From the NCBI GenBank assembly GCA_009914755.4, contig CP086569.2, positions 11,328,001 through 11,392,000 on the forward strand: 64,000 nucleotides of DNA, read 5' to 3'. Both the position numbers and the translations under genes were made by a program. Numbering within the stretch: the first letter of the stretch is position 1; each line of letters begins with the position of its first letter. Origin of the DNA: the human T2T-CHM13v2.0 reference genome, Homo sapiens. The notes beneath the pieces are model-generated. The model ran no database searches and was not told where the DNA came from. It was given only the letters and a program-made list of their open reading frames with translations. Positions 25,438 through 28,360 of this stretch are shown here, piece by piece.

Positions 25438-25745
25438 ATTATTAGTATCAGATTGTTTGAAGGGCTCACAGTAAGGGTAGTAGTAGGGCGAGTTCTAACT
25501 CAAATAGGGGAAATGTGATGGCTACTAGAAAGAATTTTATGGAGAAGAGAATGTGGGCAGAAGATAGAGGGTCAAATCTGCATTCATAAGGGCTAGATTT
25601 TTCTATATATATTTATTTTATACATATATATATATATTTTTTTCTCTCTCTCTATATATATATTAAGTTGTGGGAGCCAAAATGTAATAATTATTAGTAA
25701 CAGGGCTAATAGGGTGTTGATTACTAGGGTTAATGTTAGGTGAAT

Positions 25746-25812
25746 TACTGTTTTTCGGATGCTATCGAAACTTTGGAAATCATGGTACTATTTATACTAA
25801 AAGAGTAAGATC
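25746..25812 (-). tRNA. mt-tRNA-Gly pseudogene inside the NUMT (not a functional nuclear tRNA)
   Basis: rc reads ..ctcttttagtataaatagtaccatgatttccaaagtttcgatagcatccgaaaaacag.. approximately equal to MT-TG. Confidence 0.7.
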
Positions 25813-26436
25813 CTCATCAATAAATAGAAACATACAAGAATAGTCATACTACATCTACAAAGTGTCGATATCAGGCAGCAGCTTCAAAGGCAAAGTGATG
25901 ACTAGATGTAAAGTGGTATTTTAGTTGGCGGAGAAGGCAGACTGAGGAATGTTGATCCAATAATGACGTGAAGTCTGTGAAAGCCTGTAGCTATAAAAAA
26001 TGTTGAGCCATAAATACCATCAGAAATAGCAAAGGGAGCTTTGAAGTATTCTGAGACTTGTAGGAGGGTGAAGTAGATACCTAATATAATTGTAATAAGT
26101 AGTGCTTGGATTGTATGTTTTTCATTATTTTTTGTTAGGCTGTGATGGGCTCAAGTAATTGAAACTCCTGATGCAAGTAATACAGATGGATTCAGGAGGG
26201 GTACTTCCAGGGTGTCAAGGGGAGAAATACCTGTCGGGGGTCAATGTCCTCCTAATTCTGGAGTAGGGGCTAGGCTAGAATGGTAGAATGCTCAAAAGAA
26301 TCCAGCGAAGAGAAATATTTCTGAGATAATAAATAGGACTATCCCATATTGGAGGCCTTTTTGAACAGTCGTTGTATGGTGGCCCTGAAATGTACTTTCT
26401 CTGATACAGACCACCCTTGGTCAATTGAATACAGAT

Positions 26437-26680
26437 CAATCACTTTAAGTAAGCTAAGTTCTTACTAAATTGATGAGACTTAAACCCACGAAAACTTAAC
26501 AGCTAAACTCCCTAGTCAACTGGTTTGAATCTACTTCTCCAGCCGCTGGGGGATAAAAGGTGAGAGAAGCAGGATTGAAGCTGCTTCTTTGAATTTACAA
26601 TTCAACGTGAAAATCACCTTGGGACTGGTAAAAACAGGCCTTGACCTCTGTTTTTAGATGTACAGTCTAATGCCCTACTT
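26437..26680. tRNA. mt-tRNA-Asn / OriL / tRNA-Cys / tRNA-Tyr pseudogene cluster inside the NUMT (not functional)
   Basis: colinear with human mtDNA 5657-5891. Confidence 0.7.
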
Positions 26681-28360
26681 AGTCATTTTACCCTTTTTTC
26701 TCACTTCATTTATGTTGGCTGACAGTCGACTATTCTCAACCAACCATAAAGATATCGGGACATTATATTTATTATTTGTCACATAAGCAGGGATAGTCAG
26801 TACAGCTTTAAGACTTATTCGAGCTGAACTCCACTAGATGATCAAATTTATGTCATTGTTATAGCCTATGCATTTGTCATAATTTTCTTTATAGTAATAC
26901 TATAATTGGAGGTCTTGGCAACTGATTAGTCCCCCTGATAATTGGCGCCCCGATATAGCATTTCTCTGCATAAATAATATGAGCTTCTGACTCCTCCCAC
27001 CCTCCTTCCTATTATTACTTGCATCCACTATAGTAGAAGCCGGCACTGGAACCGGCTGAACAGTCTCTCCTCCCTTAGCAGGAAACCTAACACATTCAGG
27101 CGCCTCTGTAGATTTCACTATCTTTTCACTCCACTTGGCAGGTGTTTCTTCTACCTCAGGGGCTATTAACTTTATTACCACAATTGTTAATATAAAACCC
27201 CCAGCCATGTCCCAATATCACACACCCCTCTTCATCTAATTAGTCCTAATTACAGCAGTTCTTCTACTCCTTTGTCTCCGAGTCCTAGCCTCTGGCATCA
27301 CTATATTGTTAACTGACCTCAATCATAATACTACTGTTTTCTACCTGGCTGGCGGAGGTGATCCTATCTTATGTCAGCATTTATTCAGATTCTTTGGTCA
27401 CCCTGAAGTCTAAATCCTCATCCCACTGGGCTTTGGGATAATTTCCCACGCCATAACACACTATTCTGGGAAAAAAAAGAACCATTCAGGTTTATGGGTC
27501 TAGTGTGAGCTATAGGATCAGTTGGGTTCTTACGGTTTATTGTATGGGCCCACCATATATTTACGGTACGGATAGATGTGGACACATGAGCCTGCTTCAC
27601 CTCTGCTACTATAATTATTGCTATTCCTACTAGCGTCAAAGTTTTTAGCTGACTAGCTAGCTACACTTCACGGCGGTAATATCAAGTGATCCCCCACAAT
27701 GCTGTGAGCCCAGGGATTTATTTTCCTTTTTACAGTAGGAGGCCTAACCTGCATTGTATTGGCCAAGGCTTATATTATGGTTCATTCATATATTTAGAAA
27801 CCTGAAAGTTTCTAAATAAATTGTAAAAAAGTTGTAAAAAAACCCAAGCTGAAATAACTACGAAAATGCCTTTAATATTCTGAAGACAAAATAGCTAAGA
27901 TCCAAATTGGGAGAAGATACCCCGCTATGCTTAACCCTAAACTCGAATAGTTAGATCAACAAAACTGTTCGCCAGAACACTACAAGCAACAGCTTAAAAC
28001 TCAAAGGACTTTGCGGTGCTTTACATCCCTCTAAAGGAGCCTGTTCTATAATCGATAAGCCCCAATTTACCTCACCACCTCTTGTCCAGACTATATACAT
28101 CCATCTTCAGCAAACCCTGGAAAGGCCACAGAGTAAGCATAAGTATCTACATAAAAACGTTAGGTCAAGGTGTAGCCCATGAGGTGGTAAGAAATAGGTA
28201 CGTTTTCTACATCCAGAAAAATCTCGCGACAACCGTTATGAAATCTAAGGGCTCAAGGAGGATTTAGCAATAAATTGAGAGCAGAGTGTTTAATTGAATA
28301 AGGCCATGAAGCACGCACACACCGCCCTTCACCCTCCTCAAATATATTCTAGAAACTCAT

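What the first reader, a model, noticed from the sequence alone, without database searches (positions are those of the whole stretch)
25438..28360. Mosaic, rearranged ancient NUMT embedded in the satellite
Three mtDNA segments that are tens of kb apart and non-adjacent in the mitochondrial genome are joined here. They are ND3-tRNAGly-COX3 (reverse), tRNA-Ala..Tyr+COX1 (forward) and 12S rRNA (forward). The internal junctions lie at ~26385 and ~27775-27815. COX1 also carries internal deletions. Identity to present-day human mtDNA is only ~75-85% by eye, which implies an old insertion, consistent with NUMTs preserving ancestral mtDNA. The composite structure suggests capture of several mtDNA fragments at a single double-strand break, or post-insertion rearrangement driven by the palindromic satellite. 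It sits wholly inside the inverted-orientation satellite block, which continues on both sides (24500-25437 and 28361-29465).
Basis: partly seen in the sequence, partly recalled or inferred. Interest (0 to 1): 0.8.

Follow-up and report, generated by a model that had tools for sequence, protein, structure and literature searches.

The report
Old four-piece mitochondrial insert in satellite
This is an ordinary but well-preserved ancient piece of mitochondrial DNA (a NUMT), stitched from four separate mitochondrial fragments and inserted at one point in a primate satellite repeat roughly 40-60 million years ago.

Summary
Window 25438-28360 (2,923 bp) is mitochondrial DNA inside nuclear satellite DNA. 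It has four fragments, not three:
- ND3-tRNAGly-COX3, reversed (25438-~26402)
- tRNA-Ala(part)..Tyr + COX1 codons 1-~360 (~26403-27766)
- the 3' part of 12S rRNA (27817-~28360)

Identity to human mtDNA is 74%, 75% and 83% for the three long fragments. The reading frames are broken. The satellite monomer continues in register across the insert with at most 2 bp missing, so everything sits at one break point.

Each long fragment branches as sister to crown hominoid mtDNA (bootstrap 98-100% against non-primates). Each carries about a third of the changes fixed on the line to hominoids. Each shows similar nuclear decay, 6-9% at sites invariant in all mtDNAs compared (homogeneity p = 0.10-0.14).

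COX3 amino-acid states place the source mtDNA before the New World monkey/catarrhine split.

The best reading is one capture of several mtDNA fragments during end-joining repair. This is a known kind of event (a complex NUMT). The only slightly unusual point is its location inside a satellite array. Interest is low.

The parts
25438..25745 (-). ND3 pseudogene, codons 1 to about 79. It is interrupted by a 49-bp (TA)n/(GA)n microsatellite at 25613-25661.
   Evidence: BLASTN to Pongo 9515-9758. Pfam Oxidored_q4 E = 6.6e-14. Left end aligned base by base. The 49-bp insertion is absent from all mtDNAs compared.
25746..25806 (-). tRNA-Gly remnant with 7 bp deleted.
   Evidence: Mapped from Pongo 9447-9514, the interval between the COX3 and ND3 gene calls. 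Identified as tRNA-Gly from the standard mammalian mitochondrial gene order.
25807..26402 (-). COX3 pseudogene, codons about 62-261, with one 2-bp deletion and one in-frame stop.
   Evidence: Pfam COX3 E = 1.2e-95, profile positions 61-258 of 258. BLASTN to Pongo 8850-9446. Indels listed.
26403..26711 (+). Forward-oriented mtDNA fragment carrying the L-strand tRNA cluster. Contents: partial tRNA-Ala, tRNA-Asn, light-strand origin, tRNA-Cys, tRNA-Tyr (26626-26692, minus strand) and the tRNA-Tyr/COX1 spacer.
   Evidence: Alignment with Pongo, siamang, Capricornis and another eutherian. Rfam tRNA hit at 26626-26692 on the minus strand, 31.1 bits. This is homologous to Pongo tRNA-Tyr 5249-5315.
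26712..27766 (+). COX1 pseudogene, codons 1 to about 360, with several frameshifts and a 19-bp deletion at about 26836.
   Evidence: Pfam COX1 E = 9.6e-67. PDB COX1 chains E about 1e-167. BLASTN to Pongo 5342-6420. Indels listed.
27757..27807 (+). 51-bp cytochrome b fragment. It overlaps the end of the COX1 homology by up to 10 bp.
   Evidence: BLASTN to Pongo 14491-14541, inside the CYTB gene: 80% identity, E = 5e-7 for the 4-kb query and 3e-5 for the whole window. Local alignment score is 25, against 12.5 +/- 1.4 for shuffles. The best hits in Capricornis and in eutherian L010 fall at the homologous CYTB site. It translates to IGQGLYYGSFMYLETWK, compared with the conserved HIGRGLYYGSF.. LETWN motif.
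27817..28360 (+). 12S rRNA, 3' part (about 57% of the gene).
   Evidence: BLASTN to Pongo 398-942 at 81%. This lies inside the Rfam SSU rRNA hit at Pongo 67-1031. Identity to human 12S is 83.3%. Right end aligned.
24475..25437 (.). Left flank: about 75-bp satellite in the inverted ('B') orientation. It ends at phase 11 of the monomer.
   Evidence: Tandem Repeats Finder, orientation scan and phase alignment.
28361..29440 (.). Right flank: the same satellite in the same orientation. It resumes at phase 13 of the monomer and is interrupted by an Alu at 28428-28709 (minus strand).
   Evidence: Phase alignment, orientation scan, and Rfam Metazoa_SRP and mir-1268 hits typical of Alu.

Best explanation
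The region is a complex NUMT (nuclear copy of mitochondrial DNA).

Proposed history:
1. In a germline ancestor on the anthropoid stem, a double-strand break occurred inside one monomer of an already existing ~75-bp satellite. This was before the New World monkey/catarrhine split, roughly 40-60 Myr ago.
2. The break was sealed by non-homologous end joining.
3. The repair used four escaped mtDNA fragments as filler: COX3-tRNAGly-ND3 (inverted), tRNA cluster + COX1, 51 bp of cytochrome b, and the 3' part of 12S rRNA.
4. The insert has since decayed at the nuclear neutral rate. It gained frameshifts, stop codons, small deletions and a microsatellite expansion.
5. An Alu later landed 68 bp away.

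The insert has no function.

Shown here:
- mtDNA origin of all four pieces
- a single insertion point with at most 2 bp of target lost
- a placement outside crown hominoids
- similar decay in all three long pieces

Inferred:
- joining of the pieces in one repair event
- the absolute date
For: Origin and boundaries.

Single site: the satellite consensus phase is 11 at 25437 and 13 at 28361, so only the 2 bp 'GG' are unaccounted for. No satellite or other nuclear DNA lies between the fragments. Junction 1 is a direct abutment at about 26402. Junction 2 has COX1 and CYTB homologies overlapping within 27757-27766. Junction 3 has at most 9 ambiguous bases, 27808-27816.

Age:
- NUMT plus hominoids against non-primates has 98-100% NJ bootstrap in each long fragment.
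- Hominoids excluding the NUMT have 97-100% under K2P distances.
- Two rare changes are shared with hominoids. One is a 4-bp deletion in 12S. The other is the tRNA-Tyr/COX1 spacer.
- Of the substitutions fixed between hominoids and all outgroups, the NUMT has the hominoid state at 6/15, 8/19 and 3/13. With more taxa the counts are 5/15 and 2/9.
- COX1 amino acids: 2 derived, 7 ancestral, 3 other.
- COX3 amino acids: ancestral at the changes shared by all hominoids, Old World and New World monkeys (67 F>Y, 74 T>P, 111 E>Q, 220 L>I, 224 K>L). Derived at 115 (H) and 154 (N).

Decay: at sites invariant in all mtDNAs compared, the NUMT differs at 6.2%, 9.1% and 6.5%, pooled 7.6%. At 1-2.2e-9 substitutions per site per year (my knowledge of primate neutral rates) this is about 35-75 Myr.

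Literature (PMC2820518):
- Numts insert by NHEJ at double-strand breaks, with 0-7 bp of microhomology and usually little or no target deletion.
- Numts can comprise non-continuous mtDNA pieces in different orientations, attributed to concatenation before insertion.
Against: - No Old World monkey, New World monkey, tarsier or strepsirrhine mtDNA sequence could be obtained. The 'before crown anthropoids' placement rests on about 7 COX3 amino-acid sites.
- COX3 site 154 (N) agrees with catarrhines rather than New World monkeys.
- Transversion-only NJ trees put the NUMT closer to the hominoid crown. It shares 81-92% of the stem length there, which would suggest a younger date of about 25-35 Myr if rates were constant.
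- Decay in the COX1 fragment (9.1%) is nominally higher than in the other two (p = 0.10-0.14).
- Fragments 2-4 are collinear on the mtDNA circle in one orientation. They could be one long insert that later lost internal parts.
- Microhomology at the junctions cannot be scored reliably after this much decay.
Confidence: 0.75

Rival explanations
1. One long mtDNA fragment was inserted and later reshaped in place. It would have run about 12.5 kb from tRNA-Ala through the control region to 12S. Large internal deletions, plus inversion and relocation of the COX3-ND3 piece, would then have produced the present structure. The recombination-prone satellite surroundings may have helped.
For: Fragments 2, 3 and 4 (COX1, CYTB, 12S) are in one orientation and in circular mtDNA order. 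The COX3-ND3 piece lies between COX1 and CYTB on the mtDNA. The surrounding satellite switches orientation at about 24470 and about 29470, so inversions do occur here. The insert has clearly suffered later small deletions and a microsatellite expansion.
Against: It needs at least three large deletions plus an inversion and a transposition of one piece alone. A simple inversion would also flip COX1, which is forward. The chance that three random fragments are co-oriented and in circular order is about 1 in 8, so collinearity is weak evidence. No satellite sequence was carried into the insert.
Confidence: 0.15
2. Two or more independent mtDNA insertions happened at different times into the same spot (an insertion hotspot).
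For: Nuclear decay is nominally higher in the COX1 fragment, 9.1% against 6.2% and 6.5%. Shared stem changes are nominally lower in 12S, 3/13.
Against: The differences are not significant (p = 0.14 and p = 0.51). All three long fragments take the same tree position. Later insertions would have to hit exactly the ends of the earlier ones, because no nuclear DNA separates the fragments and the satellite phase is unbroken. The literature favours concatenation over hotspots (PMC2820518).
Confidence: 0.07
3. An assembly artefact or contamination by modern mtDNA reads.
For: None found. mtDNA contamination does occur in public assemblies.
Against: Identity to human mtDNA is only 74-83%. There are many frameshifts and stop codons. 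The insert takes a basal tree position. It has clean junctions with a diverged satellite, and an in-situ microsatellite expansion.
Confidence: 0.01

Closest known systems
Complex (concatenated, multi-fragment) NUMTs of primate genomes, as reviewed by Hazkani-Covo, Zeller and Martin 2010 (PMC2820518)
   Same: Non-contiguous mtDNA pieces in different orientations are joined without intervening nuclear DNA. They were inserted at a single break with almost no loss of target sequence. The sequence is a slowly evolving 'fossil' of ancestral mtDNA.
   Different: Nothing essential. This one has four pieces, one of them only 51 bp, and it sits inside a satellite array. A 2025 great-ape T2T survey reports satellite sequence as depleted around NUMTs (10.1101/2025.04.24.650511).
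The old cohort of human NUMTs dated around the Platyrrhini-Catarrhini divergence (mentioned in PMC2820518)
   Same: The estimated age is in that range or somewhat older. COX3 states predate crown anthropoids, and there is about 7.6% neutral decay.
   Different: Membership of that cohort cannot be shown without orthology data. This locus shows no sign of post-insertion duplication within the window.
Tandem or 'mega' NUMT arrays, such as the chimpanzee chr5 array and concatenated NUMTs in human pedigrees (10.1101/2025.04.24.650511)
   Same: Multiple mtDNA pieces at one locus, sometimes non-contiguous.
   Different: Those arrays are recent, nearly identical to present mtDNA, longer than one genome and tandemly repeated. 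This insert is 2.9 kb, old, and each mtDNA region is present once.

Membership tests
NUMT (nuclear mitochondrial DNA segment) | Sequence homologous to mtDNA and preserving local mitochondrial gene order | tested here: met
   ND3-tRNAGly-COX3, tRNA cluster-COX1, CYTB and 12S each align collinearly to Pongo, siamang, human and non-primate mtDNAs. Pfam hits.
NUMT (nuclear mitochondrial DNA segment) | Embedded in nuclear DNA on both sides | tested here: met
   A ~75-bp satellite flanks the insert on both sides, with an Alu 68 bp to the right.
NUMT (nuclear mitochondrial DNA segment) | Non-functional: reading frames broken under the mitochondrial code | tested here: met
   Stop codons and frameshifts in COX1, COX3 and ND3.
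NUMT (nuclear mitochondrial DNA segment) | Branches from the host's own mtDNA lineage as a slowly evolving fossil | tested here: met
   Sister to crown hominoids in all three long fragments. Shares a 12S 4-bp deletion and the tRNA-Tyr/COX1 spacer with hominoids.
NUMT (nuclear mitochondrial DNA segment) | Orthologous presence in species that diverged after the insertion and an empty site in those that diverged before | not testable with these tools
   No primate nuclear assemblies are searchable. An exact look-up of the longest ORF in the insert found nothing.
Complex / concatenated NUMT | Two or more non-adjacent mtDNA regions joined without nuclear DNA between them, possibly in different orientations | tested here: met
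   Four regions (Pongo 8850-9758 reversed, 5036-6420, 14491-14541, 398-942) with 0-9 unassigned bases at the junctions.
Complex / concatenated NUMT | A single insertion site in the host sequence | tested here: met
   The satellite monomer phase runs from 11 to 13 across the 2,923-bp insert.
Complex / concatenated NUMT | All fragments of the same age (one event) | tested here: inconclusive
   Same tree position for all fragments. Homogeneity of decay p = 0.10-0.14 and of shared stem changes p = 0.51. This is consistent with one event, but site counts are small and the 51-bp piece cannot be dated.
Complex / concatenated NUMT | End-joining signatures (blunt joins or short microhomology) at junctions | tested here: inconclusive
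   The COX1 and CYTB homologies overlap by up to 10 bp, and junction 1 is a direct abutment. About 25% divergence from every available mtDNA prevents base-level assignment.

The most novel reading that the evidence does not exclude
Because the insert interrupts a satellite monomer in perfect register, it time-stamps the array. This ~75-bp satellite already existed at this locus before the New World monkey/catarrhine split (at least about 40 Myr ago) and has not been homogenised away since. The 2.9-kb insert is also a multi-gene fossil of stem-anthropoid mtDNA. At some COX1 sites it may preserve intermediate states, for example A>S>P and A>T>S in the 'NLAHAG' to 'NYSHPG' segment.
Probability: 0.45. 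Interest if true: 0.3.

Novelty: new member of a known kind. Interest (0 to 1): 0.15.

Why it matters
It matters little beyond bookkeeping.
- **Read mis-mapping:** NUMTs like this one must be known so that they are not mistaken for mtDNA variants or heteroplasmy. This copy is too diverged to cause much mis-mapping.
- **Fossil of ancestral mtDNA:** it is a dated fossil that could help polarise the fast COX1/COX3 changes of early anthropoids.
- **Age of the satellite:** it gives a minimum age for the surrounding satellite array, a class of sequence that is otherwise hard to date.
- **Location:** it is an example of a NUMT inside satellite DNA, where a recent T2T survey found NUMTs to be depleted.

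Tried and rejected
- **tRNA detection.** ARAGORN in bacterial mode found no tRNA in the insert. Rfam found only tRNA-Tyr. The other tRNAs were placed by alignment.
- **Rfam on the 12S piece.** Rfam did not recognise the decayed 12S piece directly. The assignment rests on homology to the Pongo interval that Rfam calls SSU rRNA.
- **The search for related loci on viral contigs.** Pongo COX1 as query gave only non-mammalian hits. The tool back-translates Trp- and Met-rich peptides with the standard code, which does not fit mtDNA.
- **Two protein searches aimed at monkey mtDNA contigs.**
  - The ND1 search was swamped by human variants. It yielded only the orangutan and gibbon records.
  - The capuchin COX3 search returned no monkey protein with DNA on record. 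The many 399-402-aa Logan proteins it did return are COX3-tRNAGly-ND3 read-throughs from non-primate mammals.
  - As a result, no Old World monkey, New World monkey, tarsier or lemur DNA was available.
- **Metagenome scan.** It gave human mtDNA for fragments 1 and 2. It also returned several other NUMT-like contigs with broken ORFs (L014, L015, L018, L021), which I did not use as references.
- **Genome-collection scan.** It supplied human 12S through a contaminated MAG. It also returned two complete mammalian mtDNAs. Their COX1 lacks the anthropoid-type changes, so I used them only as extra outgroups.
- **ORF look-up.** An exact look-up of the longest ORF in the insert found no other contig, so orthology could not be approached.
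- **Satellite-driven rearrangement.** I considered it as the cause of the mosaic and rejected it as the main explanation. No satellite DNA lies inside the insert, and the flanks are in register.
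Full report
**What is there**

Window 25438-28360 is flanked on both sides by a diverged satellite with a period of about 75 bp. An orientation scan shows the array running from about 21550 to 30400. It has one orientation at 21775-24470 and 29500-30400, and the opposite orientation at 24475-29440. An Alu sits at 28428-28709 on the minus strand (Rfam SRP and mir-1268 hits).

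Translation of the region under the vertebrate mitochondrial code shows recognisable but broken genes. COX1 is on the plus strand. COX3 and ND3 are on the minus strand. The frame-corrected translations hit Pfam COX1 (E = 9.6e-67), COX3 (E = 1.2e-95) and Oxidored_q4/ND3 (E = 6.6e-14).

**Reference sequences**

No mtDNA library is offered by the tools, so I collected references indirectly.

| Reference | Locus | Source call |
|---|---|---|
| Pongo abelii NC_002083 | L001 | 16 |
| Symphalangus NC_014047 | L006 | 28 |
| Capricornis NC_020629 | L007 | 29 |
| Murid-like mtDNA | L008 | 30 |
| Unlabelled eutherian mtDNAs | L002, L010 | 17, 31 |
| Human mtDNA contig from a metagenome (COX3 260/261 identical to a labelled Homo protein) | L027 | 33, 35 |
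| Human 12S from a contaminated MAG (99.6% identical to the human contigs) | L034 | 63, 64 |
| Two further non-anthropoid mammalian mtDNAs | L035, L036 | 63-65 |

**Anatomy**

BLASTN against Pongo mtDNA gives four matches. They were confirmed against four mtDNAs over the whole 64-kb window, with nothing else found.

| Window | Pongo mtDNA | Content | Identity |
|---|---|---|---|
| 25453-26401 | 9758-8850 (reversed) | ND3, tRNA-Gly, COX3 | 73% |
| 26421-27766 | 5036-6420 | tRNA-Ala part to tRNA-Tyr, COX1 codons 1 to about 360 | 75% |
| 27757-27807 | 14491-14541 | cytochrome b | 80% |
| 27817-28357 | 398-942 | inside the SSU rRNA that Rfam finds at Pongo 67-1031 | 81% |

Three lines of evidence support it:
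- Its local alignment score is 25, against 12.5 +/- 1.4 for shuffled copies.
- The best hits in Capricornis and in eutherian L010 fall at the homologous cytochrome b position.
- It translates to IGQGLYYGSFMYLETWK, matching the conserved HIGRGLYYGSF.. LETWN motif.

Base-level inspection refines the boundaries:
- The outer ends are at 25438 and about 28360.
- Junction 1 is at about 26402, a direct abutment.
- Junction 2 lies within 27757-27766, where the COX1 and CYTB homologies overlap.
- Junction 3 lies within 27808-27816.

Later damage to the insert:
- a 49-bp (TA)n/(GA)n expansion in ND3 at 25613-25661
- a 7-bp loss in tRNA-Gly
- deletions of 3, 19, 3, 4 and 1 bp and insertions of 2 and 4 bp in COX1

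**One insertion point**

I aligned the flanks to the satellite consensus. The left flank ends at monomer phase 11 (window 25437) and the right flank resumes at phase 13 (window 28361). The whole 2,923-bp mosaic therefore occupies one point in one monomer, with at most 2 bp of target lost and no satellite DNA inside it.

**Age**

Identity to human mtDNA is 74.2%, 74.8% and 83.3% for the three long fragments.

Tree position:
- In neighbour-joining trees, each long fragment groups with hominoids against non-primates at 98-100% bootstrap.
- Each falls outside crown hominoids. Support is 97-100% with K2P distances and 62-89% with transversions only.

Two rare changes tie the insert to the primate line:
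- a 4-bp deletion in 12S shared with hominoids and absent from all non-primates
- the intergenic spacer between tRNA-Tyr and COX1

Shared stem changes. These are sites where all hominoids differ from all outgroups.
- The insert has the hominoid state at 6/15, 8/19 and 3/13 sites in the three fragments.
- With more taxa the counts are 5/15 and 2/9.
- About one third of the stem changes had therefore occurred when the copy left the mitochondrion.

COX1 and ND3 amino acids:
- In COX1, 2 hominoid replacements are present, 7 are absent and 3 are in other states. Those three other states could be intermediates.
- In ND3, 3 are present and 1 is absent.

COX3 is the only gene for which labelled monkey proteins were available.
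- The insert keeps the ancestral residue at 67 (F>Y), 74 (T>P), 111 (E>Q), 220 (L>I) and 224 (K>L). These are changes shared by hominoids, Old World monkeys and New World monkeys.
- It has the derived residue at 115 (H) and 154 (N).
- This places the source mtDNA on the anthropoid stem, before the platyrrhine/catarrhine split.

Nuclear decay. At sites invariant in every mtDNA compared, where changes must be post-insertion nuclear mutations, the insert differs at 6.2%, 9.1% and 6.5%, pooled 7.6%. With primate neutral rates of 1-2.2e-9 per site per year (my knowledge, not a tool result) this gives about 35-75 Myr.

A caveat: transversion-only branch lengths would suggest a younger date. No monkey, tarsier or strepsirrhine DNA could be obtained to settle the bracket.

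**Did the pieces arrive together?**

Four observations favour one event:
- The three long fragments share the same tree position.
- Their decay rates do not differ significantly (p = 0.098 and 0.14).
- Their shares of stem changes do not differ significantly (p = 0.51).
- There is a single, in-register target site.

Fragments 2-4 are co-oriented and in circular mtDNA order. A long insert with later internal deletions therefore cannot be excluded. The inverted COX3-ND3 piece, however, would need a separate inversion and relocation. The chance of such collinearity arising by accident is about 1 in 8.

**Comparison with what is known**

The review PMC2820518 states the following:
- Numts enter at double-strand breaks by non-homologous end joining.
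- Junctions show 0-7 bp of microhomology, and the target usually suffers little or no deletion.
- Numts can include non-continuous mtDNA pieces in different orientations, attributed to concatenation before insertion.
- There is an excess of numt events around the Platyrrhini-Catarrhini divergence.

This locus fits that description on every point I could test. The one mildly unusual feature is the host sequence. A 2025 survey of great-ape T2T genomes reports satellite sequence as depleted around NUMTs, while noting that identification in such regions may be limited (10.1101/2025.04.24.650511).

**Verdict**

- There are four fragments, not three.
- Junction 1 is at about 26402.
- The fragments are a few kb apart on the mtDNA, not tens of kb.

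It is a new example of a well-known kind of feature, with no sign of function. Interest is low.

Noticed in passing
window 48846-49499 (minus), within the GC-rich block 43000-55000: An ORF here contains a Tektin-family segment (Pfam PF03148, E = 2.4e-18). A tektin gene or pseudogene therefore lies about 20 kb from the NUMT. From memory only, TEKT4 and its pseudogenes lie in human pericentromeric duplications, which would fit the satellite context.
   Followed up: partly
window 21550-30400: The ~75-bp satellite array changes orientation at about 24470 and about 29470. The roughly 5-kb block holding the NUMT and an Alu is therefore inverted relative to both neighbours, which suggests an inversion within the array. 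The monomer contains a palindromic core, GGGGGTGTACACCCCC.
   Followed up: partly
window 28428-28709 (minus): An Alu element is inserted in the same satellite block 68 bp to the right of the NUMT (Rfam Metazoa_SRP and mir-1268 partial hits). I did not determine its subfamily or target-site duplication.
   Followed up: no
window 25613-25661: A 49-bp (TA)n/(GA)n microsatellite has grown inside the ND3 pseudogene. It appears to be seeded by the native codons AAT ATA TAT ATA GAA.
   Followed up: yes
L034 (CALTZA010000022.1), L035 (QFWI01000030.1), L036 (CALGBW010000058.1): Species-representative 'bacterial' genomes contain mammalian mtDNA contigs. Human mtDNA sits in a Francisella MAG. Complete non-primate mammalian mtDNAs of 16.7 and 16.5 kb sit in a Vampirovibrio MAG and a Chlamydiaceae MAG. 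This is host contamination in public MAGs.
   Followed up: partly
L014, L015, L018, L021 (metagenome contigs); protein P0024 (Logan): These are other mtDNA-like contigs, 76-81% identical to Pongo mtDNA and with interrupted reading frames. P0024 is a 336-aa COX3-tRNAGly-ND3 read-through ORF. Together they look like other, unrelated primate NUMTs present in public assemblies.
   Followed up: no
window 26700-26711 and 28060-28075: The insert shares two rare changes with hominoid mtDNA that are absent from all non-primates compared. One is an intergenic spacer between tRNA-Tyr and COX1. The other is a 4-bp deletion in 12S (CTTGC----TCAG). Both are useful markers for placing it once monkey and prosimian mtDNAs are added.
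   Followed up: partly
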